From an uncultured delta proteobacterium (GTDB lineage: Bacteria > Desulfobacterota > WTBG01 > CAIYCZ01): a DNA stretch of 64,000 nt. Position 1 is the first letter of the stretch, and each line of letters starts with the position of its first letter. The notes beneath the pieces were generated by a model. That model did no database searches. It was not told the DNA's origin and was given only the letters and a program-made list of their open reading frames with translations. Location of the stretch: the NCBI GenBank assembly GCA_963803975.1, contig CAWDOY010000019.1:11723-75722 (forward strand), given 5' to 3'. Positions 4,127 to 25,031 of the stretch are shown in pieces. Made by a program: the position numbers and the translations under genes.

Positions 4127-4340
4127 CTTTTAAAAATTAAAGCATTTACGATAACATAATATATTCTGAACTTTTATTTTCCATGACCTTGCGAAAACCT
4201 TTAAAATAAGCTACTAAAAATATACAAACCTACAGCACCAACCCAGAATCCTGAAATAAGCTTAGGGTATAACGGGTTGTATATTATATATATACAGCAC
4301 GGAGGGGATCAGTTTAAACCTTTTATTGGGGAGTATTTTT

Positions 4341-6660
4341 ATGACGCAAAGAACAACCAAGCACTGTTTTGCAGTAATGACGCTGTTCGTCTTCCTTTCA
4401 GTAATGCTTATAGCAGCAGGAGACGCAGCAGCACAGACCTACAACCTTCTGGTAAGAGTCAAAGGCACTGCGGGAGCCAATAACCAGGTAACATTGACGC
4501 TTGGCGGTGGAAGCCTTACCACACCGATAGTAAAACAGACCGGGCCGTTTGGATTTGCCTTCTTTACCAGAGTTCCTGCCGGTATCTACACCCTGACGCC
4601 GAGCAAGACCAATGAAGCATTTTTGCCGGAGACAGCAGTCGTTGTCATAAGCACAACTTCAAAACGCTGGACCTTCATTACGTTTGAAACCACCACCATC
4701 CAGAAATTATGGGAAGGCTCCGGCCATGCGGATTCAAAAGCCGAGGCGTTTGTCCACTGGGACGAGGAAGATCCTCCTGAAATTCCTACTTCCTGCGCCA
4801 AGTGCCACAGCACGGCCGGTTTTATTGATTTTGCCCAGGACGGCACGGTGGACACCGCGGTGCCTGCCGGCCCGGATAAAACAAATAACATTTCCTGTGA
4901 TGCCTGCCATGCACCTGCAGCACAGGCTTTGACCAGCGTCAAATTTCCCTCCGGCGCGGTGCTCAGCAACCTCGGCAAAGAGGCCATCTGCATGCAGTGC
5001 CACCAGGGACGCTCTTCAACTCCGCAGGTTGACGCTGCCATTGCCAAGGCCGCGCCTGCTGACGATGACACGCCGACCAGCGCCCTGAGTTTCCAGAATA
5101 TCCACTATTATGCCGCAGCAGCCACGCTGTACGGCGGAGAGGTCCAGGGCGGATATCAATATGCCGGCAAGGCCTATGACATTAAATTCCAGCATGTGGA
5201 AGGCTTTGACAAGTGCTTTGCCTGCCATGACCAGCATTCCCTGCGGGTAAAAACAGAATACTGCGTTCAGTGCCACACCGGCGCGACCGAAGTGGACGAT
5301 TTGAAAAACGTGCGCATGAACGGCTCTCTTGAGGATTATGACGGTGACGGCAACATCACTGAGGGCATTGCCTTTGAAATAGAAGGGCTGCAGGTAAAAC
5401 TGCTTGCAGGCTATTCAGGCATACGCGAGTACGGTCGCAGGAACCAAAATTGCCTATAATGCCGCAGCGTACCCCTACTTCTTTAAAGACGCCAATGGTA
5501 ACGGCACTGCAGACGCTGACGAGACCGCCTATGATGCATGGACCGCGCGTCTGCTGAAAGCTGCCTATAACTACCAGACCTCGCTGAAAGACCCCGGCGC
5601 GTTCGCCCACAATGCAAAATACGTCATTGAGCTTCTGTATGATTCCATAGCAGACCTCAATACCAAGCTTTCAACTCCCATAAGCCTTGCCGGCGCCAGC
5701 CGCGTTGATGAAGGCCACTTTGACGGCTCATCTGAAGCCTTCCGGCACTGGGATGAAGAGGAAGAAGGCGTACCATCAGGCTGCGTCAAGTGTCACACCT
5801 CCTACGGACTGCCCAAAGTGCTGAAGGCAGAGACGCTTGAAGCCGGCCCGCCGTCAAACGGTTTTGCCTGCTCCACCTGCCATGACAACAATGTGACATT
5901 CCCGGTCAGGCAAGCAGGAGAGGTAACGTTCCCGTCAGGGCTGAAGGCGAGCCTTGAGGATGCAAGCAACCTGTGCATGAACTGCCACCAGGGACGCGCA
6001 TCCAAGAAAACCATCGATGACAACATAGCAGCAGACAACTTCGGCTTTGTCAATGTTCATTACTATGCTGCCGCGGCCTCATTTTTCGGGACCGATGTCA
6101 AGGGCGGCTATGAGTATGACGGCAAGACCTATGCGGGAAAAAACACCTTCCCGGCCCATGGCGGGAACCTGAATACCTGCGTGCAGTGCCATATGGGCAC
6201 CAAGTCTGTTGCTAAATCACACATGGTAATACCGAATGTGGCAAACTGCCAGTGCCATGCCATCTCCAGCTTCGACGCTCTGAAGATAAGCGGCAGCGAC
6301 TATAACAAGGACGGCCAGCAGCCGGTGAAGCAGGAGATTGAATCAACGCAGGCAGCCCTGTATGCGCAGATTCAAACCTATGCTAAAGACACCCTGGCTA
6401 AGCCAATTGTTTACAGCCCGACCGCCTATCCGTATTTCTTCAATGACACAAACGGTAACGGCAGTTTAGATGCGGATGAGGCTACCAGTGCCAATGGATA
6501 CAAGTCCTTTGATGCCAAACTTCTGAAAGCTGCATATAATTACCAGTTCAGCATCAAGGAGCCCTGCGGCTATATCCACAACGCGGACTATATGGCCCAG
6601 CTTGCGATTGACTCCATCGGTGATCTCGGCGGCGATGTAAGCAAGTTCAGCAGGCCCTGA
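4341..6660 (+). CDS. Secreted ~10-heme cytochrome c: beta-sandwich N-domain and two tandem pentaheme repeats (frameshift at ~5405)
   Basis: ORFs 4326-5459 and 5404-6660. Both repeats carry GH..S.AEAF.HWDEE...C.KCH, C..CHQGR.S, HYYAAAA and AYPYFF.D.NGNG..DADE. 9 CXXCH plus one CQCH. Signal peptide AAA-Q; RBS GGGGAG before ATG 4341. Confidence 0.9.
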
Positions 6661-6699
6661 TCAGGTACTGCTTGCGTAGTAATCAGGTGTGATGTATCA

Positions 6700-6733
6700 G
6701 GGGAGGCGGATACCGTTCGCCTCCCCTTTTTTT
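6700..6733 (+). terminator. Rho-independent terminator
   Basis: GGGGAGGCGGA-TACCG-TTCGCCTCCCC hairpin followed by T7, 40 bp after the stop at 6660. Confidence 0.85.
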
Positions 6734-6738
6734 CGCTG

Positions 6739-6765
6739 TTGACAAAACATGCCAAACCATGTTTT
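6739..6765 (+). promoter_or_regulatory. Putative -35 box overlapped by an operator-like palindrome
   Basis: TTGACA at 6739-6744 and a perfect inverted repeat AAAACATG-N6-CATGTTTT at 6744-6765, upstream of the gene at 6805. Confidence 0.45.
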
Positions 6766-6804
6766 ATGCAAGAGTATAGATAATACCGTATCACAGCACT
6801 CACC

Positions 6805-7911
6805 ATGAAGCACAACCACAGCCCATTACTATTAATAATCCTGCTCTTTGCAGGCATCGCCTGTTTCCCCTCCGGGGCAAGCGCTGCGCCGGTGCACCTG
6901 CTCGATTTTACCGGCATCACGATAACCGATAATCTGGGAGTACCCACAACAGAGTTCGGACCGGGAAATGTCGTCAATATTGAAGCTGCATTTACCCTCA
7001 GCCCGGCCGGGCATTGCATGGCTGCGCGGCACTGTTACTGGCACGAACTGGTCGGCAGAACTTCCGCTGAGATTCCGCTTTGGCCTAAAGGGGGATTACA
7101 AGGCAGCGTGGGCTATAACCATTCCAATAACAGCAACCGGCCTGACGCAGGTTGAGATCACCCTGGTCAATCCCTTGCAGGAGCGTGTTATACGCAGCGC
7201 CTTTTTCACTGTTACCCCTATCCAGGCGGCATATGTGGGTTCTGATGCCTGCAGCCTGTGCCATCCTGATGTCTTTGCTGCCTGGAAACAGACTCTGCAT
7301 AATCCGTTCGCGGGATGTGAAGTGTGCCACGGGCCCGGCAGCGAGCATATCCTGACCCAGTCTCCGCAGTTTATAGTTATTAATAAAACGTCACAGCTTT
7401 GCGGGCAATGCCACGGGCAGAACAACGGTCAGGGTATTGCAGCCGGTAATGGTTTCATTAAACCGCAGCAGCAGTACAATGAATTGCAAGCCACCCGTCA
7501 TGGCATGCGTTCTGGTGTGCGTCACCTGCCACAACCCGCATTACAGCATCAGTGCCGCGCCGGCAAAGGCCATCAAAGTCAACTGCCGGGAATGCCACGC
7601 AAATAAGAACGTTGATCTGTTAATGGAGGAACGTCGCCTGCGTGGAATGCCACATGCCGTATGCGGTACTGAAGACGCAGTCAACCGGCGCGGGGCCCTA
7701 CCGCAAAGGTGACGAGCGGACCCACATCGTGCGGATTAAAACCGAGGCAAATCCCCAGGATATGTTCATGCCGGGCGGCACGGCACTCCGCGAGGATGCG
7801 CTGGGAGCTTTTATTACTGACAATTTTGCCTGTCTGGGCTGCCATAATGGAGTGATTGCCCGCTTTGAGACGTTTGAAGATGTTCGTAAAACCTCTACGC
7901 TGATTCATTAG
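6805..7911 (+). CDS. Secreted heptaheme cytochrome c with Ig-like N-domain (3 apparent frameshifts at ~7010, ~7505, ~7635)
   Basis: Joined ORFs give a signal peptide, an Ig-like domain resembling that of the 1512 gene, then CSLCH, CEVCH, CGQCH, CVTCH, CRECH, CVECH, CLGCH. CHMPYA and GD.R.H motifs are shared with the 1512 repeats. Confidence 0.85.
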
Positions 7912-8139
7912 CGATCTGCCTCTGGCGCGCTTTCAGACAGTGCTTTTGATCTGCCCGGAACCCTGCAGGCGCGCAAACCTGACCATGCTTGCGGCCAGGA
8001 GGATTGAATATTGATTCCTGAAGAAAGGAGAGTGTGAAACGCATTCTCCTTATTTTTATATGGAATTCATTAATAATCTTTGTTATATAGAACTATCAAT
8101 CTACCAGCATGATCGTTCTTCTTTCCTGAATCTAAACGC

Positions 8140-8880
8140 ATGAGAAAATTATTCATTATACTGATTGGCATTACTGCGTGCTGTTCAGCCTTCAACTGTG
8201 CCGTAACGGTCAGCTGCGCTGAAGAGGTCGGCATGGTCCTGGTGCCGGGCGGCAAATGCAGCCTGGGAGCAGAGGACGGTGACCCTGATGAGATGCCAAT
8301 ACATGAAGTGTATGTTGATTCTTTTTATATTGACGTGCATGAGGTAACCATCGGGCAGTACAAAAAATTTATGGAAGCGACCGGCCACCAGAAACCGCTC
8401 TACTGGCAGCCGGAACTCGACCGTAACGAGGACCCGGTTGTTGGCATAAGCTGGCAGGATGCCGCGGCGTATGCTTCATGGGCAGGCACCAGGCTCCCCA
8501 CCGAGGCTGAATGGGGGTATGCTGCCCGCGGGGGGAGTATGCATGGCAAATACCCGTGGGGTGATAAGCCGGATACGAGTTACGCAAATTTTAAATCATT
8601 TGGCATATTACCGGTAAAAAGTTTAAAGCCAAACGGGTACGGCTTGTACGACATGATTGGTAATGTGTGGGAATGGTGCTCGGACTGGTATGACAGTGCC
8701 TATTATTATTCAAGCCCGGGGAAAAACCCCCGGGGACCGGTTGCAGGAACGCATAAGGTTCTGCGCGGCGGGGCCTGGTATTGTGATGATAAAGAGGTAA
8801 GGGTAACAAACAGATTCTTTGCTCTTCCGGATGCAAAGAATTACAACGTCGGTTTCCGCTGCGTGAAATCTGTCAAATGA
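8140..8880 (+). CDS. FGE-sulfatase (SUMF1-like) domain protein with signal peptide
   Basis: Motifs EVT..QY, P.V..SW.DA.AY..W, RLPTEAEW.YAARGG, PNGYGLYDMIGNVWEW, RGGAW, GFRC. Confidence 0.9.
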   Translation: MRKLFIILIGITACCSAFNCAVTVSCAEEVGMVLVPGGKCSLGAEDGDPDEMPIHEVYVDSFYIDVHEVTIGQYKKFMEATGHQKPLYWQPELDRNEDPVVGISWQDAAAYASWAGTRLPTEAEWGYAARGGSMHGKYPWGDKPDTSYANFKSFGILPVKSLKPNGYGLYDMIGNVWEWCSDWYDSAYYYSSPGKNPRGPVAGTHKVLRGGAWYCDDKEVRVTNRFFALPDAKNYNVGFRCVKSVK

Positions 8881-10040
8881 GCCGTAGATCATTATTGCTA
8901 TTCCTGCTGCTATTGTTGTTCTGCATGTCATCACGGGCATACGCTGTTGACGAGGAGAACTGCCTCCTGTGTCATAGATATTCAGGCCTGGGAAGAATTG
9001 ATAAAGAGGGCAAGAAGCACCTCTACTATGTCAATGAATCCCTCTACAACCAATCGGTCCACGCTAAAGTCCGCTGTGGAGAATGCCACACGGATATTAA
9101 AGGGTTTCCCCACGGCACAATAAAAAAAGTTGACTGCGCTGCGGTCTGCCATCTTGTTGACCCGTCAAACAATAAGCCCTTCTCCCATGCCAGCATGATT
9201 GAGAAATATGAGCTGAGCGTTCACGGCAAGGGCCCAAAAGACAAACCCAAGCAACATACTGAAGATTTGCCGACCTGCACCTACTGCCATGACAACCGCA
9301 TCTACCAGCCGGTCAGCAAGCTTGCCAGCAATGAGCGAGGCATGGCACAGGAAATCCTTGACCGCTGCATGGGCTGTCATACCAATACTGAATGGACCAG
9401 TGCGTTTTATTATCATTTCACCGAGCGTCTTCATCAGCGGCGCTCTTCCAAGCGGATGGTAGAGCTCTGCACGTCATGCCATGAAGATGAAACAAAGATG
9501 TCGCGTCATAAGATTGCGATAGTGAGCACCTTCCGTGATACATTCCACTGGCAGGCAATAAAATATGGTGATCCGAATGCGCCTAATTGTATTACCTGTC
9601 ATGCACCGGTAGGGTATTTTTCCCACGAGATAATGCCCAAAAGTGATACCCGCTCAGCCCTGTATAAGGATAACCTGGTGCGCACCTGCAGCAATCAGGG
9701 CGGCGTGCAGATGTGCCATCCCGATGCCACACCAAGCTTCGCCCAGGGCAAGATTCACCCGCTGCAATTCAAGGCAGGTATTTTTGATAACCAGCAGGAT
9801 GCTTTGAGCAGAAAACAGGAAATCGAGAAAGGAACCTTCAAACCATTCCAGACGCTGCTCTCAGAAATGGTGCGGGGCGATAGCGGAGACCAGGGGAAAC
9901 TGCAGGGGATGATCCTGGTGCTGATAAAATATTTCTACATGCTTTTGATCGGGGGGCTTATCAGCAGCATGATGGTACATCAGATACTTGATTTTATCGC
10001 AACCCGCAGAGAACTGCGCAGGAAGGATAGACCGATATGA
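8877..10040 (+). CDS. Membrane-anchored octaheme cytochrome c (module 1)
   Basis: Signal peptide, 6 CXXCH plus CAAVCH (CX3CH) and CSNQGGVQMCH (CX8CH), C-terminal transmembrane helix. Confidence 0.88.
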   Translation: MSRRSLLLFLLLLLFCMSSRAYAVDEENCLLCHRYSGLGRIDKEGKKHLYYVNESLYNQSVHAKVRCGECHTDIKGFPHGTIKKVDCAAVCHLVDPSNNKPFSHASMIEKYELSVHGKGPKDKPKQHTEDLPTCTYCHDNRIYQPVSKLASNERGMAQEILDRCMGCHTNTEWTSAFYYHFTERLHQRRSSKRMVELCTSCHEDETKMSRHKIAIVSTFRDTFHWQAIKYGDPNAPNCITCHAPVGYFSHEIMPKSDTRSALYKDNLVRTCSNQGGVQMCHPDATPSFAQGKIHPLQFKAGIFDNQQDALSRKQEIEKGTFKPFQTLLSEMVRGDSGDQGKLQGMILVLIKYFYMLLIGGLISSMMVHQILDFIATRRELRRKDRPI

Positions 10041-10753
10041 AACAGGATACCGGACAGCCACAGCCGGGTTCATCAGGGCATAGCCACGGGGCCGAAAAAT
10101 ATTACCTGCGCCTGAACCTGCATGAAAGAATCCAGCACCACCTCACCTGGTCTACCTTTGTGGTTTTGGCCCTCACCGGATTCATGGTGGAATTTCCTGA
10201 AGAATGGATCGCTGTCTTCGGCTCATACCAGGAAGCGGTGTTTTACTGGCGCGGAATTATTCACCGGGTTGCAGCAGTCGTGATGGTGTTCAACATGGTT
10301 TATCAGGCCTGGTATATGCTGCTGACGGAAGCCGGAAGAAACTATTTAGCTGCAATGCTGCCGAGGCTGCAGGATGCCAAAGATATTAAGCACAATCTCG
10401 CCTATTATATCGAGCTGACTCATGACAAGCCGCGATTTGACCGGTTTAATTACAAGGAGAAGCTTGAATTCTGGACCGGGCTGATCGGCGGCATCATCAT
10501 TACCGTGACCGGCTTTTTTCTCTGGTTTCAGCAATATTTCCCAAAATTTATATTTGATGTATCTGTTCTGGTGCACACCATGGAGGCGATCCTGGCATCC
10601 AGCGCAATCATGGTGTGGCATTTTTACGAGGTACATCTGAAACCGGGTAAATTCCCCATGTCAACAATCTGGCTGGACGGCAAAATCTCGGAACACGAGC
10701 TGAAAGAAGAGCATCCGCTTGAGTATGAGCGGATAGTGAATAGTGAAAAGTGA
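10037..10753 (+). CDS. Diheme cytochrome b, FdnI/HydC-like (module 1)
   Basis: Four hydrophobic helices with RIQHH...LALTG, IHRVAA, RFNYKEKLEFW, VHTMEA and WHFYEVH. ATGA overlap with the upstream gene. Confidence 0.9.
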   Translation: MKQDTGQPQPGSSGHSHGAEKYYLRLNLHERIQHHLTWSTFVVLALTGFMVEFPEEWIAVFGSYQEAVFYWRGIIHRVAAVVMVFNMVYQAWYMLLTEAGRNYLAAMLPRLQDAKDIKHNLAYYIELTHDKPRFDRFNYKEKLEFWTGLIGGIIITVTGFFLWFQQYFPKFIFDVSVLVHTMEAILASSAIMVWHFYEVHLKPGKFPMSTIWLDGKISEHELKEEHPLEYERIVNSEK

Positions 10754-10800
10754 AACGTGGAAACGTGGAAAGTGGAAAGTGGAAAGTGGAAAGTGGAAAG
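10737..10800 (+). repeat. Heptamer tandem repeat (GTGGAAA)n overlapping the stop codon
   Basis: gtgaata gtgaaaa gtgaaac gtggaaac gtggaaa x5. Confidence 0.85.
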
Positions 10801-10885
10801 ATATATTGCCTTGTTGTTTATCAGAGGTTTAATCATTCTCCGCTGACAGCTGAACGCTGAGCTGAAGGCTGTGAGTTAACTGAAA

Positions 10886-11653
10886 ATGACAAATCCCTTA
10901 CTGAAACTTATCTCCAAGCTGCTTGGATTCCTGGCGTTGCTGGCCATTATTTTCTGCTTATACAGCCTCGCCCGGTTTCTCTATTTCCAGCCCCACCGGC
11001 AACCCGTGTCCAGAGAGCAGGTTGTTGCTGAAAAGTTCAGTAAAAAGCTGCGCCGCGACATAGGAACCGGCCATTTCCATGTGTCGGATGAGCCTATAAC
11101 CACTGATATTGAGACCGCCCCCATGTGCCTGCGCTGCCACGGTAATTTCTGCCACAACAAATCTGAAGAATTCAGATCATATTATAATATGCATACTTTT
11201 TTCCTTGCCTGTGAAACCTGCCACATCAGGAAGGAGCAGGGCTCAGCTATCCGGTTTACATGGTTTGACGACAAGACCGGCACGGAGTTGAAACAGGTTA
11301 AGGGTCAGGATGAAAACTATGGGGCTAAAATTGTACCCGTCAAGCCAGAAGGGCAGGGGTTTGAGCGGCTTGATGTATTTCCTGAGAATGAACCTGGCGT
11401 TTGATTTTTTAAAAAATAAAGATAGTTATGCTGCTGAACAAAAGGAAAAAATTAAACAGCAACTGATGAAACATATCTCCAAGAAACCCGTAACCTGTGA
11501 GGAATGTCACTGCAAAGAAGCATATCTGAACTACAGGACCTGGGATATGATGCAAACCGTTCTGCAGACCTTTCCCGCATCGAGATTGTGAAAATGATCA
11601 AGGAGTATAAGGATTTCAAATTCCCGGTTATTTTTGGTTCAGAAAAAAAATAG
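10886..11653 (+). CDS. Membrane-anchored triheme cytochrome c (module 1; frameshifts at ~11392 and ~11537)
   Basis: N-terminal TM helix, HFH, CLRCH...NMH...CETCH and CEECH. The rejoined C-terminus LGYDANRSADLSRIEIVKMIKEYKDFKFPVIF matches the two paralogues. Confidence 0.82.
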
Positions 11654-11790
11654 GTGTGATGCAGGGCGATGCTTCCCCATGGTACAGTACCGGTAATGCC
11701 GGGTTTCCTGTTTTCTCTACCCCCAGCACAAACCACACTGAGTAGTAGATAGTTATTATAAAACGCTTTGTCTATGAGGAGAATGCCTGC

Positions 11791-12876
11791 GTGCAGCATA
11801 AAAATGCATCAACAATCATTGTCCGCTTCTTAGTGCTGGCAGTGACCGCACTGCTTGTTTTCTGCGGCTCATCTGCGTATGCTTTTGACGAGGAAAACTG
11901 CCTCTTCTGCCATCAATACCGGGGCTTGAGCTATCACAACAAGGAGGGCAAATTCAAACTCCTGTATGTCACTGAAGACATGTATGTGAAGAGCCCCCAC
12001 GGCAACCTGCGGTGCACGGACTGTCACGCCAATGTTGACAAATTCCCCCACGGCGAGCCGAAGAAGGTCGACTGCCTGCTGGTCTGCCATATGAACGAGC
12101 CGTCATCGGGCAAGCAGTTTTCCCATAAGAAAGTGGGTGACTTTTTATCTAAAAGCGCCCACAGCCCGGTAGACAAAGACGGCAAGCCCAAACAGGATGC
12201 CGCTGACTACCCGGACTGCAAAGCCTGCCACCAGGACCCGCTCTACCGCCCGCTGGCCTTTCTCAAACAGGAACGGCCGGGCCTTGCAGAGAACACAATT
12301 TACCGATGTTCCATCTGTCATGAGAATAAGGACTTTATGCGCAAGTTTTACAACCACTTTACCTCGCGGATGCAGAAGCTGCGCAGCCCCAGGGAACAGG
12401 TGGAAATGTGTTCCGAGTGCCATGCTGATACTGCCATGATGAAGCGGCACAACCTGGAAAATGTCATCGTCTCCTATCTGGAAACCTATCACGGCAAGGC
12501 AGTATCCCTGGGCAATGAACTGGCAGCAGACTGCAATGACTGCCACGTGGTGCCCGGGGAATCGATACATTCGATACGGAATTTTAAGGACCCTGAGTCA
12601 GCGGCGCACAAAGACAATATATACAAAACATGTTCTGCCGTTGAGTGCCACCCCAAGGCGGCACTCAACCTTGCGGGCTACAAGGCGCATGTTATTGTCG
12701 CGCCGCACAAGAACCCTGTTGAGTTTTATGCGGTAGTCTTTTTCGTACTGCTCACGCTCGGCAGCTTTATTCCCCTGATGCTGTTTACCGTGCTTGATAT
12801 GCTGCGCAATATTTTCCCCAATGCAGCTTTGATTAAAAAGGAAAAAAAGGAAGATGAGATCGATACAAGTAATTGA
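11791..12876 (+). CDS. Membrane-anchored octaheme cytochrome c (module 2)
   Basis: AYAFDEENCLFCH start is paralogous to 8877. 6 CXXCH plus CLLVCH and CSAVECH; C-terminal TM helix. Confidence 0.88.
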   Translation: MQHKNASTIIVRFLVLAVTALLVFCGSSAYAFDEENCLFCHQYRGLSYHNKEGKFKLLYVTEDMYVKSPHGNLRCTDCHANVDKFPHGEPKKVDCLLVCHMNEPSSGKQFSHKKVGDFLSKSAHSPVDKDGKPKQDAADYPDCKACHQDPLYRPLAFLKQERPGLAENTIYRCSICHENKDFMRKFYNHFTSRMQKLRSPREQVEMCSECHADTAMMKRHNLENVIVSYLETYHGKAVSLGNELAADCNDCHVVPGESIHSIRNFKDPESAAHKDNIYKTCSAVECHPKAALNLAGYKAHVIVAPHKNPVEFYAVVFFVLLTLGSFIPLMLFTVLDMLRNIFPNAALIKKEKKEDEIDTSN

Positions 12877-14525
12877 GAAAAACGGAAAGCTCTATTTCCA
12901 ACGGCTCACGTTAAACCAGCGCATCCAGCATGTCCTGCTGTTTGTCTCCTTTACCCTGCTTGCTGCTACCGGCCTGCCGCTGAAGTTCCACTCAACGTGG
13001 TGGGGGCCAAAGTTCTACGCCCTGGTGGGAGGCATCACCTACGCACCCATAATCCACCGCATAAGTGCCGTGATTATGACTGCAACCTTCATATACCACG
13101 CGATCTACGTGCTGGTCGCCTTCTACCGTTACTATATTGTTCCCCTCAAGGAAGAGGGAAGGCTCACCCTGTGGACCTTTTTGGGCGCGTTTGCGGAGAT
13201 GCCCATGGTTCCAAACTTGACGGACATCAAAGAGCTTTTCAGAGTTCTCAAATACTTCCTGTTTATCACCAACGAGCGGCCATCGCTGGTGTTTCACGGG
13301 CTGAAGGAGAAGTTCGGCTATTTGGCAGTGTTCTGGGGTATTCCGGTTATCGGCATATCCGGCTATTTTTTGTGGTACAAGGAATATGTCACCCAGTTTT
13401 TCTCCGGCAATGTTCTGAACTTTGCCTATATCGCACACAGTGACGAGGCGTTTCTCGCGAGCATTGTTATCTTCATCTGGCACCTCTACAACGTGCACCT
13501 GGCGCCGGCGGTATTCCCCATGGGTTTTGCGTGGCTGAACGGCCTGATTAACGAGCGGGAGATGGTTGAGTACCACTATGAAGACTACTTAAAGGCGATG
13601 AAGGACGCAGGCTTGCAGGACCGGATACGGCCCAATGCGCTTAATGTGAGCTTTAAAACGGGCTTTTTATCGCGGATCGTTGAAAAGGCGTTCATGGGTC
13701 TCTATATTGCGGCAATTATTGCAGCCACGGTGGTCATCAGCCGCGTTATTTACCACTCTGCTTTTATCATGGGCTACCAGATTGTAACCACCGAGCCAAA
13801 ACATGAAGTTGAAGTGCAGGCAGAGCCGAAATTTATTGAAGAAGTGGTGCTGGAAGCTTCCGAAGGCAAACAGATGTACCGGGGCTACCGTTTTATTGAG
13901 GAAAAAAATATCAAGAAGCATTATCACCGCATTGAGCTGAAGGTAGGCCCTGATAACGCCTCCCCGTGCATCAAGTGCCACGGAGATCTGCCGCATGGCA
14001 AATCAGAGCAGCTCAGGGCATTCCTCAACATGCACAATTTATATTTTGGCTGTCGAACCTGCCATGTCCGCCCCCGGGAAGGAAAGAAAGGCCTGAGCTA
14101 TTTCTGGTATAAACGATCTACCGGCGAGGTTGTGCTGAATCCGCAGATCGGCGATGCACCGATTGACTCGCTTGATCTAAAACTCACGCCCTGTGAAGCC
14201 TGTGAGGGCAAAGCCCGACCTGAAGATAATTGATGATGAGCGCGCACTATTCAGTACATTGATCGGGAGCCTGGAGGAGAAGAGCCTGAGCAAGGAACAG
14301 AAAAAAAAGATACTCGAGCAGATTCATAAGGATACTTCCAAGCAGCCGGTCACCTGCAACGAGTGCCACAGCAGTAAAAACCCGTTTATACCGCTGATCG
14401 ATATCGGATATCCAAAGGAACGGGCAGCCATGGTGACCAGCGATCAGATAACCAAAATGATTGACCAGTACGAAGTGTTTCACACGCCGAAATTTTTAGA
14501 ACCCGAGAGGCAGCCTAAAAAATAA
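12854..14525 (+). CDS. Cytochrome b fused to a triheme cytochrome c (module 2; frameshift at ~14228)
   Basis: RIQH...LAATGLP, IHRISA, KEKFGYLAVFWG, AHSDEA, WHLYNVH, then an extra TM helix and CIKCH, CRTCH and CNECH (ORF 14193-14525). Confidence 0.88.
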
Positions 14526-15475
14526 TGAAGCGCCGCAGAATATTTTTCTTCTTTCTGACTGCAGGAGTGGTTCTTTTTTCTTCAGGCAGCGCTCATGCCT
14601 TTAAGATAACCCCGCTCAAGCACCTGTTTGACCTTGAGCACGGCTTTCTCCAGCCCAGCGACGTTGAGGTGGGTAAGGACCACAGAATATACGTGCTTGA
14701 CGGGGTGAACAACCAGGTGAAGGTGTTTGATGAAAAAGGTCCATTCCTGTTTTCCTTTGGCAGCAGGGGTCAAGCAAAGGGCCAGTTTGAATCTCCCCTC
14801 GGCCTCTCCATTGACAGCACGGGCAGGGTCTTTGTGGCTGATACCGGCAACCGGCGCGTGCAGCTATTTTCTGCTGAGGGAAAAGCGCAGTCTGAATTTT
14901 CCATCACGTTAAAAGATGCGCAGCATGCCTGCGACCCGGTAGATCTCGCGCTTGATGAGAAACGCAATAGAATATACGTGGTTGATAATGAGAACCACAA
15001 AGTGCTTTTGTACTCCCTTGACAAGTTTTCCTTCCTTGAGAGCTGGGGAAAAGAAGGTGATGGACGCCAGGAATTCCGCTACCCGTTTTTTATAGCAGCG
15101 GGAAAGGACGGTACGGTTTTAATCGTGGACGTGCTCAATACCCGGGTCCAGGCATGGGACCCGAAGGGCAGGGCAATAAGCACCATTGGTGAATGGGGCG
15201 TTGACGTGAGCCAGTTCTACCGGCCCAAGGGAGTATGCGTGGATAAGGACAACCGGGTGTTTGCCAGTGACAGCTATCTGGGGGCAATCCAGGTATTCAA
15301 CCGTTACGGCAGCTTCCTGTCAGTGCTGGGGGATGAGTCCGGGAAAATCATCAAATGGAAAACACCTGTTGGCATGGCAATTGATGACCGGCAGCGGCTG
15401 TACGTGGTGGACATGATTGCCAACCGGGTGTGTGTATATCAAATTTTAGACAAAGATATTGAGGTGGCCAGATGA
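14525..15475 (+). CDS. Secreted NHL-repeat beta-propeller protein
   Basis: Repeated F..P.G/D.......YV.D..N.RV..F units and a signal peptide AHA-F. Confidence 0.92.
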   Translation: MKRRRIFFFFLTAGVVLFSSGSAHAFKITPLKHLFDLEHGFLQPSDVEVGKDHRIYVLDGVNNQVKVFDEKGPFLFSFGSRGQAKGQFESPLGLSIDSTGRVFVADTGNRRVQLFSAEGKAQSEFSITLKDAQHACDPVDLALDEKRNRIYVVDNENHKVLLYSLDKFSFLESWGKEGDGRQEFRYPFFIAAGKDGTVLIVDVLNTRVQAWDPKGRAISTIGEWGVDVSQFYRPKGVCVDKDNRVFASDSYLGAIQVFNRYGSFLSVLGDESGKIIKWKTPVGMAIDDRQRLYVVDMIANRVCVYQILDKDIEVAR

Positions 15476-17349
15476 ACCGCAAAAAAATTGTGCTGCTCTG
15501 TATTGTTGCTTGTCTTTTGCTGTTGCCCCTATGGTGCTCCCTGTCATTTGCCCGTGACCCTGAAAACTGCCTGTTCTGCCACAAGTACCGGAGGCTCCGG
15601 GGGTATGATGAAAAGGGGGTTCTGCACAATTATTATGTGGATGCAAAGCTGCATAATGAATCTATCCATCGCGACGTGGCGTGCGTTGACTGCCACACGG
15701 ATATTGACCAGGTGCCCCACAAGGCTGAAGCTAAGAAGGTTGACTGCTCCAAGGAGTGCCATATCGATAAATGGAAGATTATGAGCGGCGGCCCCTTTTC
15801 CCACCGGGATGTTGCCGAGAATTATCGCAGCAGCATTCACGGCGTCAAGCCTGATGACAAGCCGGAAGTCGCCCAGCTGAAGCCTGACTGCAAATACTGC
15901 CACCTGGATGATGTCTATGAGCTGTCTGAAGAGGTGCCTTCAGACGCCGTGCTGAAGCGCTGCATGAACTGCCATAAGGAAAAAGGGCTGAAGGATATCT
16001 TTATCCATATCTATCACCGCTTCAAGCGCAAGCATGTGAGAAAGCCGCTTGAAATCGTGGAGCTGTGCTCAGGCTGTCATGCGGACAAGGATTTTCAGAA
16101 TGTCATGGGGTTTACCGGCGCGCGCGCGGAAGTGGTTGAGACCTACAAGGAGACCATCCACTACCGCATCCTGCAGCTGGGGGGGCAGGATACGGCTGAC
16201 TGCACCAATTGTCATGCCGGTGGAACAATACATAACATTCTGCCGTCCTCAGACCCGAAATCATCCGTCAACCCGGAGAACCGGTACCGCACCTGTCAGG
16301 CTGAAGGCTGTCATCCCGGGGCCAGTCCGAAGATATCAAATATTGACAGTCATCTGAGCAAGGACAAGGATAAGGGCATTGAAATCACCGTGGTTGAATC
16401 AGCCATGCAGGGGGTGATGTGGTTTACCCTGTTTTTCCTCTTTACCCTCATGGGCATGGAGACCTACGGCCGGCTGAGAAACCGTGATGCGCGGTTCGCC
16501 CGCTGGCTGCGGGTTCCGCAGAAATACCCCGGCAACATGCCGGCCGGGGAACATCATCTCGGCGAAATACCGAACCTGCACCGCTATGTGGAGTTCAATC
16601 CCAAAGGAGATTATCCCCGGTATTCAATTAATATCGTAATCAATCATTTCCTGGTCGGGATTACCTTCACCGTGGCAGTTGCTACCGGCCTGCCTCTCTA
16701 TTTTCACAACTCCGCCATCTCCCATGAAGTAATAAATCTCGTGGGCGGGATTAATGTGACACGGGTAATACACCGTTTCAACGCAGCCCTGTTTACGTTT
16801 AACTGCATCTATCATCTCATCGTGCTGCTCTGCGGAACGTTGAAAAAAATGAGCAGCAGGACCTTTGACATCCGCCGCACCCAGTTTCCCCTGTGGAAGG
16901 ATGCGAAAGACCTCTATTTTGATATCCGCTATTTCCTCGGGCTGGAGAAGGCGCGGCCGCACATGGAAAAGTTCATGTACAAGCAGAAAGTCCACTACCT
17001 GGCAATGATCTGGGGCTGCTCGGTACTGACCTTATCCGGGGTGTGCCTGCTGTTCCCGGAAAGCATGGTCACGTATCTTCCGTTCCCGAAAGTCTCTTTT
17101 AACCTGCTGCGCCTGCTCCATGCGGACGAGAGCGTACTGGCCTTCCTGGTCATTACGCTCTGGCACCTCTACAATGTGCACATCGCTCCGGGCCGCTTCC
17201 CTCTGCAATGGGCATTCTGGAACGGCCGCATTACCAGGGATCATCAGATAGAGGAGCACTTTCTCGAGTATGAGCGGCAGGTGAAAGAGGGCGTTGCAGA
17301 ATGCGAAGAAGACAAGCTGGCGAAAGGAGGGCAGCGCAATGAGCAGTAA
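15472..17349 (+). CDS. Octaheme cytochrome c fused to cytochrome b, CbcL-like architecture (module 3)
   Basis: DPENCLFCH, 6 CXXCH plus CSKECH and CQAEGCH, a TM helix, then cytochrome b motifs NH..., ATGLP, IHRFNA, KFMYKQKVHY, LHADE and WHLYNVH. Confidence 0.9.
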   Translation: MNRKKIVLLCIVACLLLLPLWCSLSFARDPENCLFCHKYRRLRGYDEKGVLHNYYVDAKLHNESIHRDVACVDCHTDIDQVPHKAEAKKVDCSKECHIDKWKIMSGGPFSHRDVAENYRSSIHGVKPDDKPEVAQLKPDCKYCHLDDVYELSEEVPSDAVLKRCMNCHKEKGLKDIFIHIYHRFKRKHVRKPLEIVELCSGCHADKDFQNVMGFTGARAEVVETYKETIHYRILQLGGQDTADCTNCHAGGTIHNILPSSDPKSSVNPENRYRTCQAEGCHPGASPKISNIDSHLSKDKDKGIEITVVESAMQGVMWFTLFFLFTLMGMETYGRLRNRDARFARWLRVPQKYPGNMPAGEHHLGEIPNLHRYVEFNPKGDYPRYSINIVINHFLVGITFTVAVATGLPLYFHNSAISHEVINLVGGINVTRVIHRFNAALFTFNCIYHLIVLLCGTLKKMSSRTFDIRRTQFPLWKDAKDLYFDIRYFLGLEKARPHMEKFMYKQKVHYLAMIWGCSVLTLSGVCLLFPESMVTYLPFPKVSFNLLRLLHADESVLAFLVITLWHLYNVHIAPGRFPLQWAFWNGRITRDHQIEEHFLEYERQVKEGVAECEEDKLAKGGQRNEQ

Positions 17350-18160
17350 TGGAAAAAAATCGACCGCAGAGCCGTTTATCGCTTTTATCATTATTATCGC
17401 TCTTGCGGCACTCCTCAGCGCGTATCTTACGTTCAGGGTGCAGTTTGAGCGGCGCAAGGAGCCAGCCGAACCAAAGACTAAAGAGGTGTCGTTCCAGACG
17501 CTGCGCGTAAAAGAGCAGGAGCGTAAACAGAAGCATGAACATTTTCACCTGGTGACTGAAGACGTGAATCTTGAAGCATGGGCAGACAAATCAACCTGCC
17601 TGATCTGTCATTCGCCCTATCCCCACGGAAAGAACAAGAAAGCCAAGGCCATCATGAACCTGCACACCGAGTTTTTGACCTGCCATGCATGCCATTCAAA
17701 AGAGGAGTTCGAGGGGAAGGTCAAGTTCGGATGGGTTAACCCAACCGCTCATAAGCCCCAGGGCAAGCCCTACGGCACGTCGATAGATGTTGCCAACGGC
17801 CTGTTTGCAGAGACTGATGACCATTATTCCAAGCTCACGCCTTTCATACCGGTAAGCGGTGCATGGAAGCCCGTGACCTCGGAAGAAGGGGTGGCAGAGG
17901 CAAAAACATATATGGAACAGGGCACAGCGTATTCGCCTGAGAAAAAGAAGGAGATCGAGGACCGGCTGCACCGGGGCACAGAGCTCAAAGAGTTTATCAA
18001 GTGCTCTTCCTGCCATTCGGCAAGCGGCATTATGAATTTCAAGGAGCTGGGCTTTGACCCGGCACGCATAAATCAGCTGGTGAAAATGGAAATCGGCGGC
18101 ATGATAACCAATTATGATGTATTCTATTTCCCGCAGATCTTTGAGGAAAAATTCAAGTAG
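17339..18160 (+). CDS. Membrane-anchored triheme cytochrome c (module 3)
   Basis: RBS AAGGAGG before ATG 17339, TM helix, HFH, CLICH..PH, CHACH, CSSCH. Confidence 0.85.
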   Translation: MSSNGKKSTAEPFIAFIIIIALAALLSAYLTFRVQFERRKEPAEPKTKEVSFQTLRVKEQERKQKHEHFHLVTEDVNLEAWADKSTCLICHSPYPHGKNKKAKAIMNLHTEFLTCHACHSKEEFEGKVKFGWVNPTAHKPQGKPYGTSIDVANGLFAETDDHYSKLTPFIPVSGAWKPVTSEEGVAEAKTYMEQGTAYSPEKKKEIEDRLHRGTELKEFIKCSSCHSASGIMNFKELGFDPARINQLVKMEIGGMITNYDVFYFPQIFEEKFK

Positions 18161-18251
18161 GGATTCGGGAATCGGGACTCGGGGTTAGATTCTTACCTTA
18201 TATACATCTGAGGATTTTTCTCTCGGATTATTTTCGAGACATAGTATCCTG

Positions 18252-18304
18252 CTGTAGGAGCGGCTTCAGCCGCGAAACAGGCGCGCATAAATGCGCTCCT
18301 ACAG
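18252..18304. repeat. GTAG-family REP doublet
   Basis: CTGTAGGAGCG...CGCTCCTACAG 11-bp inverted arms enclosing GCGGCTTCAGCCGC. Confidence 0.75.
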
Positions 18305-18319
18305 AAATTTCAAATATTT

Positions 18320-20419
18320 TTGGCTATGTTTTTGTCTGTTGTCAGTATTCTGTATTCATTTGCGCGTATGCATAAAAACTCTATTATAGTACTCTCTATA
18401 ATTATCTGTATATGCCTTGGCGTCCTTCCCGCGCATGCCCAGCTGCGGGCTCCCCGCCAGACTGATTCGGCAAAAAAATGCGCCATCTGCCATTACCGCT
18501 GGATCTACACTTTTTATGTTGAACACCGGGGCACGCCTCTGGCCCCGCTTGATGAAAAAGAAGTTGTGGGCAGCAGTGAGATGTGCCTTTCCTGCCACGA
18601 TGGCTCGGTGCGGGACTCACGGGATAAAATCTGCAATGACCCCGGACATCGGGTAGGTATCGTGCCGTCACAACACGTGAGAATCCCTAAAAACTTTCCG
18701 CTGGATGATCAGGGCAAAATGCAGTGTTCCACCTGCCACACCCCGCATGCGGTAAGTTTCGAGCAGGGCATGCAGTTCACCTTCTTTCTGAGAAGCGTCA
18801 ACAAGGATTCCTCGTTCTGCAAGGAGTGCCATGTTGAAAAGACCGGCGGGCCGGACAAGGGAAACCATCCGATTGATGTCTCGGCAAAGAAAGTTCCCGA
18901 ACTGATAATCAAGGCAGGCGGCAGGATGGGTAAATCAATGCCGGACCAGATAATATGTGAGACCTGTCATACCCCGCACGGCGGCGTTAATAACCAGCGG
19001 CTGGTGCTGTCTGTCGAGGATCCCCTCACCATGTCGGTGCTCTGCGAAGTCTGTCATACAAAAAGCCCTGATGCCATTAAAAATTCCGGCGCCAACCGCT
19101 TCTCGCACCCGCTTGATATAAGCCCGGATAAAGCTGTCCAGATACCAAAAAAATGGGCGTGCGGAGAGGACGTGGTGCTCGGTAAAGGAGGGGTGCTGGT
19201 GTGCCGCACCTGTCATAAGCCGCACCAGGCAATTGAAAAAAAGGTCCTTCTCGCAGACCGCAATATTCGGGATTCCATGTGCGGCGAGTGTCACCAGGGA
19301 AAACAGAATATCGCCGGCTCAAGCCATGATTTGAAGGTTTCAGCACCCAACGATAAGAACATCCAGGGAAAGCGCGCCGCGGAAATCGGCACGTGCTCCC
19401 CCTGCCACCTGGTGCACCAGGGTACTGCGCGCTATATGTGGGCGCAGCCGTTGAAAAATTCCGTCAGCACGCCGGATGACTTCTGCAAAACCTGCCACGC
19501 GCAGGGAGCAAGCGCGGAGAAAAAGCTTCCCGGGAAATTCTCCCACCCGATCGGCGTCCGGGTGACGCCGCAGGCGACATCGAAACTTCTTCCCCTGTCT
19601 GATGAAAGGGGCAACCGGGCAAACAATGGCATTATCCGCTGCTTTACCTGTCACGATGTCCATAATCCTGCACCGCTCTATGCGAGCACAGAGAGAAGAG
19701 AGATAAAACATGGCAAATTCCTGCGCCTCTCGCAGTCACAGCCTTCTGAGGTATGCATTGCGTGTCATGCAGCGCAGGGAATGATTCAGGGCACAGACCA
19801 CGATCTGCGGATTATTGATGCGCGCTATAAAAATGTGCTCGGTGTCCCGCTGCAGGGCGGCGGGATATGCAGCCCCTGCCATGCGGCACATAACGCGCCG
19901 CAGCAGCAGTACCTATGGGCAACTCCATTGGGGCCTGGCAGCCTGGATAAATGGAAGGGTCAAACCGGATACCGCGACAGCATCATGACTAAACTGTGCA
20001 CCGGATGCCACGCCCCGGGAAAAATCGCAGCGGAGAAAAATCCCCAATGCGCTTTTCATCCGGGCGCCATTACGGGTCATGCCGGCTCACACCAGCCCGG
20101 AGAAACGATTATTAATTACGACCTGTTTAATGAACAATATCCCGTTTATACTGACGCGGGAAAGGTGGGGAAGGGTGGCTTTATCGTCTGCTCGACCTGT
20201 CATAATCCTCATGTATGGAAAAACCAGCGTGAGAAAGGTCCCGGGAAAAAGGTTGAGGGAAATGCGACAAACAGTTTCTTAAGAGAACAAATTGTCTCCC
20301 AGTTCTGTGTGCGCTGCCATGGAGAGGAAGGGCCCTCTAAATTCCTCTACTTCCACAGCCAGCTCAGCAGGGAAAAAGCATCGTCACCGTTTCTGCAGTT
20401 CCAGGACACAGACAAATAG
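18320..20419 (+). CDS. Periplasmic 16-heme cytochrome c, doubled-CXXCH type (true start probably ATG 18368)
   Basis: 16 CXXCH counted; repeated HP...C.TCH.PH...LR...C..CH units; signal peptide AHA-Q. Confidence 0.9.
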   Translation: MAMFLSVVSILYSFARMHKNSIIVLSIIICICLGVLPAHAQLRAPRQTDSAKKCAICHYRWIYTFYVEHRGTPLAPLDEKEVVGSSEMCLSCHDGSVRDSRDKICNDPGHRVGIVPSQHVRIPKNFPLDDQGKMQCSTCHTPHAVSFEQGMQFTFFLRSVNKDSSFCKECHVEKTGGPDKGNHPIDVSAKKVPELIIKAGGRMGKSMPDQIICETCHTPHGGVNNQRLVLSVEDPLTMSVLCEVCHTKSPDAIKNSGANRFSHPLDISPDKAVQIPKKWACGEDVVLGKGGVLVCRTCHKPHQAIEKKVLLADRNIRDSMCGECHQGKQNIAGSSHDLKVSAPNDKNIQGKRAAEIGTCSPCHLVHQGTARYMWAQPLKNSVSTPDDFCKTCHAQGASAEKKLPGKFSHPIGVRVTPQATSKLLPLSDERGNRANNGIIRCFTCHDVHNPAPLYASTERREIKHGKFLRLSQSQPSEVCIACHAAQGMIQGTDHDLRIIDARYKNVLGVPLQGGGICSPCHAAHNAPQQQYLWATPLGPGSLDKWKGQTGYRDSIMTKLCTGCHAPGKIAAEKNPQCAFHPGAITGHAGSHQPGETIINYDLFNEQYPVYTDAGKVGKGGFIVCSTCHNPHVWKNQREKGPGKKVEGNATNSFLREQIVSQFCVRCHGEEGPSKFLYFHSQLSREKASSPFLQFQDTDK

Positions 20420-20424
20420 GTTAT

Positions 20425-21999
20425 GTGGGTATCATGCGCTTAAAACCATTATATGTATATATGCTGCTTCTGACAGGAACAATGCTTTTTTGCAGCAGAC
20501 TCAGTGCGGCTGAAACCGGCAAACAGGCAATAAATCCTCACTGGACCGGGAAGTACTGTGAGGAATGCCATACCAGTAAGAATCCCCAGCAGAAAAATGC
20601 GTTGCTTCAATTTGCCGGCGATCCCATTAAACTGTGCGACAGGTGCCATTCCCGGGCCTGTGTTACCGTACAGAGCCACTCCATTGAGGTGCAGGTAAGC
20701 AAAGACATGGAGCGCAGGTTTCCCTCCGGATGGCCGCTTAACAAAGGGAACGTGAGCTGTCTTACCTGCCACGATGCGCTGCTGCAGATGCATGATGATT
20801 TCTCTGTGCAATGGATGAACCCGAACTTTCTGCGCGGGGCACCGTACAAAAAAAAGACAGATTTTTGTTTTATCTGTCATCCGAAGGAACAGTTCCAGAA
20901 AACCAATCCCCACAAGCTGCTCGACGGCCAGGGAAAAATTATTCCGCAAAACTGTCTTGTCTGTCACAATACCGTGCCTGACCCGTCACGGCAAAGAGGC
21001 GCCGGCTCCGTCATGCTCAAGGAGCCGATCGCGTCGGTGTGCATCGGCTGCCATCCGGCGCACTTTGCAAGTCACGGGGCTGATAAAGGACAGCTGCAGG
21101 TATCAGCGGATATGCGCAGGGCGCTGGACAGAAGGGAGCGGGCTCAGCATGTTGATCTGCCTCTTTTAAATGACCGCATCATGTGCGGCACCTGTCACAA
21201 TCCCCATGAAAAGGGCGTGATGCAGACGGCTGCGGTGCAGAGCGGGGCAGGAGAGAAATATTTTCTGCGGATGAATGGCGGATATGAGCTGTGCGTGGCG
21301 TGTCATGATGAAAAGCAGGTGAAAGACCGGAGGCGCCAGGCGCAGCAGGCGCTGCAGGAAAATTTTAAGTCGACGCCGGATGTCCTGCTGTCACATAAAC
21401 CGTTTGCAGAAAACAAGTGCAAGGCCTGTCACGAAGTGACATTGCAGCACCGGGAGAAGCCGGAAGCAGTCTATCTGTGCTTCAGGCAGGGCTGTCACAA
21501 GCCGGAGATGCTCAAAAAGCCATACCTGCATTATAAGCCGGTTGTTGGAAACTGCTATGCCTGTCATGAATCGCATGCCTCAGGCTATGGCAAGCTCCTC
21601 AGAGTGGACGAAGAAACGCAGTGCTACTCATGCCATCCGCTGTTTAATGATAAGAAGAGCAGGGATGTGCCTGACATTGACAAGAAGAGAAGCAATAAAG
21701 AGCACCGGGAATTTGCAGCATACCTGAAGACCAGTTCAGTGCCTGAGGGCAATGACTGCGGTTTCTGCCACAACATGAAGCACCGCACAAATATCGGCAC
21801 CATGGCGCCGGGAGCCTGCTCCAGCTGCCATCTCTATGTCAGGGGTATACTGCAGGGAAGTGCCTCCCGGCCGCTGAATGTGCACCAGACGTTTAAGGAG
21901 AAGCTCTGCTCGCAGTGCCACGATCCCCATGCGGGTACCTATAAATACCAGCTCAAGAAACCGCCTGAAACCTATCTTATAAATGAACTAGATTTGTAA
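20425..21999 (+). CDS. Periplasmic ~15-heme cytochrome c
   Basis: 14 CXXCH plus CFRQGCH, signal peptide and NPH motifs. Confidence 0.9.
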   Translation: MGIMRLKPLYVYMLLLTGTMLFCSRLSAAETGKQAINPHWTGKYCEECHTSKNPQQKNALLQFAGDPIKLCDRCHSRACVTVQSHSIEVQVSKDMERRFPSGWPLNKGNVSCLTCHDALLQMHDDFSVQWMNPNFLRGAPYKKKTDFCFICHPKEQFQKTNPHKLLDGQGKIIPQNCLVCHNTVPDPSRQRGAGSVMLKEPIASVCIGCHPAHFASHGADKGQLQVSADMRRALDRRERAQHVDLPLLNDRIMCGTCHNPHEKGVMQTAAVQSGAGEKYFLRMNGGYELCVACHDEKQVKDRRRQAQQALQENFKSTPDVLLSHKPFAENKCKACHEVTLQHREKPEAVYLCFRQGCHKPEMLKKPYLHYKPVVGNCYACHESHASGYGKLLRVDEETQCYSCHPLFNDKKSRDVPDIDKKRSNKEHREFAAYLKTSSVPEGNDCGFCHNMKHRTNIGTMAPGACSSCHLYVRGILQGSASRPLNVHQTFKEKLCSQCHDPHAGTYKYQLKKPPETYLINELDL

Positions 22000-25028: not shown

Positions 25029-25031
25029 GTA

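What the first reader, a model, noticed from the sequence alone, without database searches (positions are those of the whole stretch)
8877..18160. One three-part quinol:cytochrome c module repeated three times, each with a different gene fusion
Seen: module 1 is octaheme | cyt b | triheme as three genes. Module 2 is octaheme | cyt b+triheme fused. Module 3 is octaheme+cyt b fused | triheme. Paralogy is clear from the shared motifs D.ENCL.CH, WH.Y.VH..P..FP and H.H...C..CH...H......N.H...C..CH. The gene boundaries of the split versions look native (ATGA overlap at 10037-10040, a 132-bp spacer before 10886, AAGGAGG before 17339). Inference: the reciprocal fusions are Rosetta-stone evidence for an obligate octaheme/b/triheme complex. 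The three copies could form a hetero-oligomer or work at different redox potentials.
Basis: partly seen in the sequence, partly recalled or inferred. Interest (0 to 1): 0.85.

Follow-up and report, generated by a model that had tools for sequence, protein, structure and literature searches.

The report
Three ancient CbcL-like cytochrome modules
This operon carries three very old copies of a membrane cytochrome unit, each joined together in a different way. They are relatives of the Geobacter protein CbcL with an extra three-heme part, and they likely pass electrons between membrane quinones and a predicted wire to the outside of the cell.

Summary
The three modules (O octaheme, B cytochrome b, T triheme) have the layouts O|B|T, O|BT and OB|T. 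Contigs from four studies show no indel at the gene junctions. The copies are 27-41% identical and belong to three deep clades. T follows O+B in 53 of 54 modules in 25 genomes of the class, and a full OBT fusion exists, so the three-part complex is well supported. O+B is homologous to CbcL (profile E 1e-70). T's anchor sits where CbcL's sixth helix sits, and T weakly resembles the last three hemes of OTR. Only clade 1 keeps CbcL's fifth histidine. Relatives place the module beside an MtrB-type porin and a decaheme. An obligate three-module complex is unlikely: only 8 of 25 genomes hold all three, usually apart. Tandem CbcL-like arrays also occur without T. I found no paper on the T-bearing form, but this scan noted what appears to be the same module on other DNA. 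Verdict: new variant of a known kind.

The parts
8140..8880 (+). FGE-sulfatase-domain protein with a hydrophobic N-terminus; recurring member of these operons
   Evidence: PF03781 E 2e-65; beside modules in many relatives; ATGA overlap with O1
8877..10040 (+). O1: octaheme c cytochrome with signal peptide and C-terminal membrane anchor; the anchor keeps CbcL's fifth His
10037..10753 (+). B1: FdnI/CbcL-type four-helix diheme cytochrome b, clade 1
   Evidence: PF01292 above cut-off; four invariant His
10886..11653 (+). T1: N-terminally anchored triheme c; two frameshifts (11386, 11534) are assembly errors
   Evidence: 4 of 4 runs; intact in G001 L124
11791..12876 (+). O2: octaheme c, clade 2; Phe at the fifth-His position
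12854..14525 (+). B2+T2: cytochrome b fused through a further helix to the triheme; frameshift at 14213 is an assembly error
   Evidence: 4 of 4 runs; same O|BT layout in 16 in-class modules
14525..15475 (+). NHL-repeat beta-propeller, a near-constant companion of the module
   Evidence: PF01436 E 1e-30; present in 23 of 26 loci, the 3 misses cut by contig ends
15472..17349 (+). O3+B3: octaheme fused to cytochrome b (CbcL layout without the sixth helix), clade 3
17339..18160 (+). T3: N-terminally anchored triheme c with three invariant spare His (H70, H96, H109)
18320..20419 (+). 16-heme periplasmic cytochrome, likely downstream carrier
20425..21999 (+). 14-heme periplasmic cytochrome; followed in relatives by a decaheme and a porin

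Best explanation
Each module is a CbcL-related inner-membrane unit that likely works as one O+B+T complex and is predicted to exchange electrons between menaquinone and periplasmic multiheme cytochromes that likely feed a porin-cytochrome conduit. Shown: homology of O+B to CbcL, four heme-b histidines on B, constant linkage of T, four fusion states, three deep clades, and the gene neighbourhood. Inferred path: a quinone site near the cytoplasm-side heme b (by analogy to FdnI), then the second heme b, the eight hemes of O, the three hemes of T as a tethered exit, the 16- and 14-heme proteins, and the decaheme/porin pair. T's anchor would supply the sixth helix of the CbcL bundle, which would explain why B and T fuse repeatedly. 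The three copies are inferred to be independent isoenzymes that differ in working potential or regulation, gathered here into one operon that shares one NHL protein and one set of downstream cytochromes. Electron export to solid acceptors or partner cells is the likelier direction (about 65:35, my estimate).
For: hhalign of fused OBT rows against six CbcL-type proteins: probability 100, E 1e-70, 514 columns, 28% identity; O lacks only CbcL's heme 6. The CbcL-type set was picked by heme positions matching Table S2 of PMC6295460 (L120 = GSU0274 pattern shifted by 2 at all nine sites). The B profile hits FdnI 1kqf_C at E 1e-13, and the OBT model matches 1kqg_C at Z 14.4, rmsd 3.2, 204 residues. 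Four His are invariant in 68 of 68 B rows and 6 of 6 CbcL-type rows. The sixth helix starts 62-66 residues after the last heme His in CbcL-type proteins and 66-76 in 12 OBT proteins; CbcL-type proteins end 2-5 residues later, OBT continues for 234-251. O, B and T trees each keep the window's three modules in separate groups with the same partners. A decaheme plus MtrB/PioB porin lies in the fetched stretch in 11 of 19 relatives. In G000 the pair is on contig C20: decaheme over the GSU2203-family cut-off, porin best matching the GSU2204 family below its cut-off. G000 has a menaquinone (futalosine) gene and no dsrA over cut-off. The fifth His is kept in clade 1 and absent from all 29 clade-2 and 18 clade-3 rows.
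Against: No activity, expression or localisation data exist for any member. In G000 the porin is not in this operon. The sixth helix was not aligned by hhalign, so its equivalence rests on position alone. The OTR likeness of T is weak (E 2e-4). The reference set holds CbcL-type orthologues, not GSU0274 itself. The B tree was a quick search, does not star clade 2 as a whole, and has long-branch warnings. The assembly has a chimeric contig, so markers on other contigs may be foreign.
Confidence: 0.7

Rival explanations
1. The modules run inward: they take electrons from an outside donor (Fe(II), conductive minerals, a partner cell) and reduce menaquinone at the cytoplasmic face, which would generate proton-motive force as in formate dehydrogenase N.
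For: The b domain is FdnI-like. The preprint 10.1101/2022.08.31.506072 (Discussion read) notes that this geometry conserves no energy when exporting. CbcL-family MtoC occurs in Fe(II) oxidisers (PMC6295460). OmcK/OmcL homologues are used by a syntrophic electron acceptor (PMC10553843). G000 has an acetyl-CoA synthase hit.
Against: G000 has no dsrA over cut-off, so the usual sink of syntrophic partners is missing. The only characterised relative, CbcL, exports. Direction cannot be read from sequence (PMC6295460 found no distinguishing feature).
Confidence: 0.3
2. The three modules assemble into one hetero-oligomer (for example a trimer, as formate dehydrogenase N is recalled to be), with each protomer specialised.
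For: All three are adjacent in G000 and G001, lie within about 25 kb in G030, and co-occur in 8 of 25 in-class genomes and in the distant G085.
Against: 17 of 25 in-class genomes show only one or two paralogs, including genomes 96-100% complete. G003 keeps M1 and M3 with only a 66-aa T remnant between them. In most genomes each copy has its own operon and NHL gene.
Confidence: 0.08
3. The modules serve a periplasmic terminal reductase or oxidase for a soluble substrate (sulfur or nitrogen oxyanion), not extracellular transfer.
For: T resembles the C-terminal hemes of the octaheme tetrathionate reductase 1SP3. Rhodanese and FGE-domain genes are near some modules. An NrfCD-like operon faces this one at 23035-25631.
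Against: T lacks OTR's N-terminal five hemes (the catalytic part, recalled). No molybdopterin or other catalytic subunit appeared among the recurring neighbours, whereas a porin and decaheme did in 11 of 19 relatives.
Confidence: 0.12
4. The different architectures are sequencing or assembly artefacts, or a recent tandem triplication.
For: This assembly has many frameshifts, three of them inside the finding, an A-run lies just before the O2|B2 overlap, and the contig is chimeric beyond about 42.4 kb.
Against: No indel at any junction that the contigs cover. The layouts are fixed by clade: O|B|T in 16 of 16 clade-1 modules, O|BT in 16 of 21 clade-2, OB|T in 14 of 17 clade-3. The copies are only 27-41% identical.
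Confidence: 0.01

Closest known systems
CbcL (GSU0274, Cbc1) of Geobacter sulfurreducens and the CbcL/MtrH/MtoC family (PMC6295460)
   Same: Homologous periplasmic multiheme domain and FdnI-type diheme b domain over 514 columns; the last two b-heme His 15 residues apart; a sixth helix at the same distance; association with porin-cytochrome genes.
   Different: Eight instead of nine c hemes, two with non-canonical spacing; split into two or three genes in the window; an added triheme after helix 6, which no row of Table S2 shows (all three parts read); fifth His only in clade 1; three paralogs per genome, whereas Desulfuromonadia typically hold one copy (PMC11492766 passage).
CbcBA (GSU0593-0594) of G. 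sulfurreducens (10.1101/2021.04.15.440034)
   Same: Separate b subunit plus a C-terminally anchored multiheme c subunit, as in modules 1 and 2.
   Different: CbcB has three His and takes the fourth from CbcA, and the paper states it shares no sequence homology with CbcL. Here B carries all four His and is CbcL-like.
FdnI, cytochrome b556 of E. coli formate dehydrogenase N (1KQF/1KQG)
   Same: Fold and heme-His pattern of B.
   Different: TIGR01583 scores 28-62 bits against a cut-off of 115.85; no formate dehydrogenase catalytic or FeS subunit gene beside it; the partner is a c-heme chain.
Octaheme tetrathionate reductase OTR (1SP3)
   Same: T matches residues 209-429, the last three CxxCH and their spare histidines (E 2e-4; TIGR04315 weak hits).
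   Different: T has only these three hemes plus a membrane anchor; no match to the N-terminal half.

Membership tests
CbcL/MtrH/MtoC | N-terminal periplasmic multiheme c domain homologous to CbcL's | tested here: met
   eight hemes of O align to CbcL-type hemes 1-5 and 7-9
CbcL/MtrH/MtoC | HydC/FdnI-like diheme b domain with conserved His | tested here: met
CbcL/MtrH/MtoC | c domain and six-helix b domain in one polypeptide | tested here: not met
   None of the window's three modules is one chain with six helices; met only by the fused OBT relatives
CbcL/MtrH/MtoC | No heme-c domain after the last helix (as in every row of Table S2) | tested here: not met
   T follows helix 6, fused or as a separate gene
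CbcL (Geobacter orthologues) | Nine CX2CH motifs | tested here: not met
   6 canonical plus 2 non-canonical
CbcL (Geobacter orthologues) | Fifth His in the first helix | tested here: inconclusive
   Present in O1, Phe in O2, Leu in O3
CbcL/MtrH/MtoC | Quinol oxidase or quinone reductase activity in extracellular electron transfer | not testable with these tools
   Inferred from homology and neighbours only
CbcBA | b subunit with three His, the fourth supplied by the c subunit | tested here: not met
   B carries four invariant His itself
Formate dehydrogenase gamma subunit (TIGR01583) | Score above the curated cut-off, with alpha and beta subunit genes adjacent | tested here: not met
   62.2, 32 and 28.2 bits against 115.85; neighbours are cytochromes
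OTR octaheme (TIGR04315) | Eight hemes, full-length match | tested here: not met
   T has three hemes; 20-27 bits against a cut-off of 375
OTR octaheme (TIGR04315) | Shared fold of the three-heme part | tested here: inconclusive
   Model of T3 had mean pLDDT 62.7; the fold search matched only its N-terminal helix

The most novel reading that the evidence does not exclude
One scaffold has been split into three potential-tuned quinol gates that have been kept side by side since before this class arose. They would give an uncultured sediment lineage the high/medium/low switching that Geobacter gets from three unrelated proteins (ImcH, CbcL, CbcBA). The fifth histidine, kept only in clade 1, would be the gate residue proposed for CbcL, and T would be a membrane-tethered stand-in for the soluble triheme shuttle that CbcL reduces.
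Probability: 0.3. Interest if true: 0.72.

Novelty: new variant of a known kind. Interest (0 to 1): 0.45.

Why it matters
How CbcL switches off at high potential is open, and a fifth histidine has been proposed as the switch without precedent (10.1101/2021.04.15.440034). These paralogs are natural variants with and without that histidine, and the single-chain OBT forms are ready-made constructs for expression in G. sulfurreducens. The module also marks probable extracellular electron transfer in an uncultured lineage found in freshwater and sediment runs of 16 studies. The tandem arrangement with three fusion states is a clean example of repeated, independent gene fusion, but is not in itself a new mechanism.

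Tried and rejected
Indel-error explanation of the splits: rejected. Recent tandem triplication: rejected. CbcBA identity: rejected. Complex prediction for OB3 with T3 could not be run because the queue stayed full (last try), so binding is untested. Foldseek of the OBT model gave no match at E <= 0.001; the best was 1kqf_C at 1.1e-3. The T3 model was too poor for a fold verdict. The O profile found no solved structure, and the OB3 sequence hit only HAO weakly (E 0.005). The promoter scan gave 18 sites against 15.0 expected, so no internal promoters can be claimed; a strong terminator-like hairpin at 8025-8051 precedes the operon. The CbcL residues V205 and F525 could not be mapped with certainty, because GSU0274 itself was not retrieved. 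The role of FdnI Asn110 in quinone binding is recalled; search found no supporting paper. The cluster look-up for names could not be made. Literature searches that found no description of the T-bearing module. The library lacks most subscription papers, and supplements other than Table S2 of PMC6295460 were not read (those of bioRxiv preprints are closed); they may list such loci. G023 was wrongly labelled T-positive in the tree (it is a T-less CbcL-like protein), so the label-change count there is not used. The careful B tree did not finish; the T tree is FastTree only.

Full report
OBSERVATION. The ORF list and sequence show three modules on the + strand: O1 8877-10040 | B1 10037-10753 | T1 from 10886; O2 11791-12876 | B2+T2 from 12854; an NHL beta-propeller 14525-15475; O3+B3 15472-17349 | T3 17339-18160. 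Each O has six CxxCH plus a CX3CH and a CX4CH or CX8CH. The Cys and His of these two odd sites are invariant or nearly so in 13 aligned O domains. Identities between copies are 39.5-40.9% (O), 32.1-37.9% (B) and 27.5-32.0% (T).

ARE THE SPLITS REAL? The assembly is frameshift-prone, so this was tested first. Twenty of 24 listed runs, from 16 studies, hold part of the stretch. Contigs of four runs from four studies were laid on 8000-19000. All four contradict three single-base indels inside the trihemes (11386, 11534, 14213), so T1 and T2 are intact in nature. No indel appears at O1|B1 or B3|T3 (4 of 4 gap-free) or in the O3-B3 linker (4 of 4). O2|B2 is fully bridged in 2 of 4 and its A-run is gap-free in the other 2. 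The B2-T2 linker is covered in 2 of 4 listed pieces. B1|T1 is not bridged, because contigs break at a short repeat. G001 of the same genus carries O1|B1|T1|O2 on one contig, O2|B2T2 on a second, the T2 end with NHL and O3B3 on a third, and B3|T3 on a fourth. These are contigs of related strains, and one run may be the source sample.

RELATIVES. Searching 40 relatives with O3+B3 and opening the loci gave 54 modules in 25 genomes of the class, G000 included. The other 16 of the 41 genomes had no hit (9), only weak partial hits (6) or a T-less CbcL-like protein (G023). T follows O+B in 53 of 54; the other runs off its contig. A scripted count over in-class and out-of-class loci found 66 of 72 O domains followed by B and T, 6 at an edge and none without T; the out-of-class part is circular, since those loci were found with T. 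Trees of O (IQ-TREE, 38 rows), B (quick, 39) and T (FastTree, 38) place the window's modules in three separate groups with the same partners. Layout follows clade. Clade 1 is O|B|T in 16 of 16. Clade 2 is O|BT in 16, OBT in 4 and cut in 1. Clade 3 is OB|T in 14 and OBT in 3. All three paralogs occur in 8 of 25 genomes, two in 12, one in 5. G003 has M1 and M3 with a 66-aa T remnant between them, which suggests loss of M2.

DEPTH AND DIRECTION OF FUSION. Across 401 phylum genomes, 24 have a T hit at E <= 1e-20, 15 of them outside the class. Of 19 out-of-class loci opened, 15 are O+B+T, one is cut, two couple O and T to a NapH-like FeS membrane protein instead of B (one fused, one split), and one holds a soluble protein that joins O's first hemes directly to T. 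In a quick B tree of 95 rows, out-of-class members branch beside in-class clades 2 and 3 as three separate genes, and G085 holds all three paralogs split and in separate loci. I infer that the ancestor had three genes and that O-B and B-T fusions arose several times; this was not tested with a rooted tree. O and T staying together under a different membrane subunit suggests that they are direct partners.

WHAT IT IS. B is an FdnI-type diheme cytochrome b. CbcL-type proteins were identified among B hits by heme positions that match Table S2 of PMC6295460. Against them, fused OBT rows align over 514 columns at E 1e-70: O is the CbcL heme chain without heme 6. The helix that anchors T lies at the distance of CbcL's sixth helix, though hhalign did not align it. 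T matches the last three hemes of OTR weakly and has three invariant spare His, consistent with bis-His electron-transfer hemes (inference). ESM Atlas holds several unnamed clusters for both O and T.

PARALOG DIFFERENCES. The four heme-b His and the Glu three residues after the third are invariant in all 74 rows. The extra His in the first helix, invariant in 6 of 6 CbcL-type rows, is present in 20 of 25 rows scored as clade 1. The five exceptions are a frameshifted G030 row, a gapped row, and three out-of-class rows whose B the tree places in or beside clade 3. It is absent from all 29 clade-2 and 18 clade-3 rows. At the column of FdnI Asn110 (quinone site, recalled) the window's copies have Asn, Gly and Met, and clade 3 has Gln for a Glu kept by most others. 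The CbcBA preprint (passages read) proposes that CbcL's fifth His allows an alternative heme binding that gates electron flow.

CONTEXT. Recurring neighbours are a heptaheme, the FGE-domain gene, NHL (23 of 26 loci), 14- to 22-heme cytochromes, and a decaheme plus MtrB/PioB porin (11 of 19 relatives within the fetched stretch). In G000 that pair is on contig C20 and best matches the GSU2203 and GSU2204 families. Equating these loci with OmcK/OmcL is recalled; PMC10553843 (passages) describes OmcKL as a porin-cytochrome conduit. G000 has 40 reading frames with three or more CxxCH, a futalosine-pathway gene, an acetyl-CoA synthase hit, NiFe-hydrogenase-family hits and no dsrA over cut-off.

AGAINST NOVELTY. 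B homologues occur in 156 of 401 phylum genomes. None of 20 further B loci had T (chosen from places without a strong T hit, one cut by a contig end). Nine genomes of another family carry three such b genes about 2 kb apart; the two opened show one fused and two split c/b modules without T. So tandem arrays with mixed fusion states recur in this superfamily. Earlier notes of this scan describe what appears to be the same module elsewhere; they are leads, not support, and I reached the CbcL reading before opening them.

LITERATURE SEEN. PMC6295460: passages, section 10 and all of Table S2. 10.1101/2022.08.31.506072: passages and Discussion. 10.1101/2021.04.15.440034, PMC10553843, PMC12133095, PMC13591261, PMC13013709, PMC11492766 and 10.64898/2026.05.27.727921: passages only. 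None of what I read describes a CbcL relative with a triheme after helix 6; the searches are listed under Tried and rejected.

VERDICT. It works like CbcL but is not a CbcL-family member by the single-chain definition. It is a T-bearing subfamily with three ancient paralogs that this genus has gathered into one operon. New variant of a known kind; interest 0.45.

Noticed in passing
window ~42400-64000: The contig looks chimeric. Depth in four runs falls to near zero beyond about 42.4 kb, tetranucleotide composition is at the 99th percentile of the genome, and an ORF is cut at 42286. The genes beyond (Lhr helicase, PyrD, PAS kinases) look archaeal to me, which is recalled and not shown.
   Followed up: partly
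L101:7375-10287, L102:3246-6268: O and T coupled to a NapH-like polyferredoxin membrane protein in place of cytochrome b, fused in one genome and split in another.
   Followed up: partly
L087:1221-2171, L100:9388-10371: Soluble 312-321-aa cytochromes that join the first three heme sites of O directly to T, with no membrane anchor beyond a signal peptide.
   Followed up: partly
L104:5705-13907, L105:5096-13323, L110:4696-14070: T-less tandem arrays of three CbcL-like c/b modules with mixed fusion states, ending in a 16-heme cytochrome; seen in nine genomes of one family.
   Followed up: partly
window 23035-25631 (-): Tetraheme c + 4Fe-4S + NrfD operon (Cbc4/CbcSTU-like layout, recalled) facing the cytochrome operon.
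   Followed up: no
window 1512-7911 (+): Upstream cluster of frameshift-broken multiheme cytochromes with repeated domains, including the heptaheme that precedes the FGE gene in relatives.
   Followed up: no
L103:11175-13023 (G000:C20): The porin gene is interrupted near its 3' end; whether by a frameshift or a selenocysteine codon (its best family is annotated as a selenoprotein) was not checked.
   Followed up: no
window 10755-10800 and ~18277-18324: A GTGGAAA tandem repeat in the B1-T1 spacer and a palindromic repeat after T3, both with raised contig depth and many loose ends.
   Followed up: no
L021:8851-9051: 66-aa T remnant between module 1 and the NHL gene in a same-family genome, a likely scar of module 2 loss.
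   Followed up: partly
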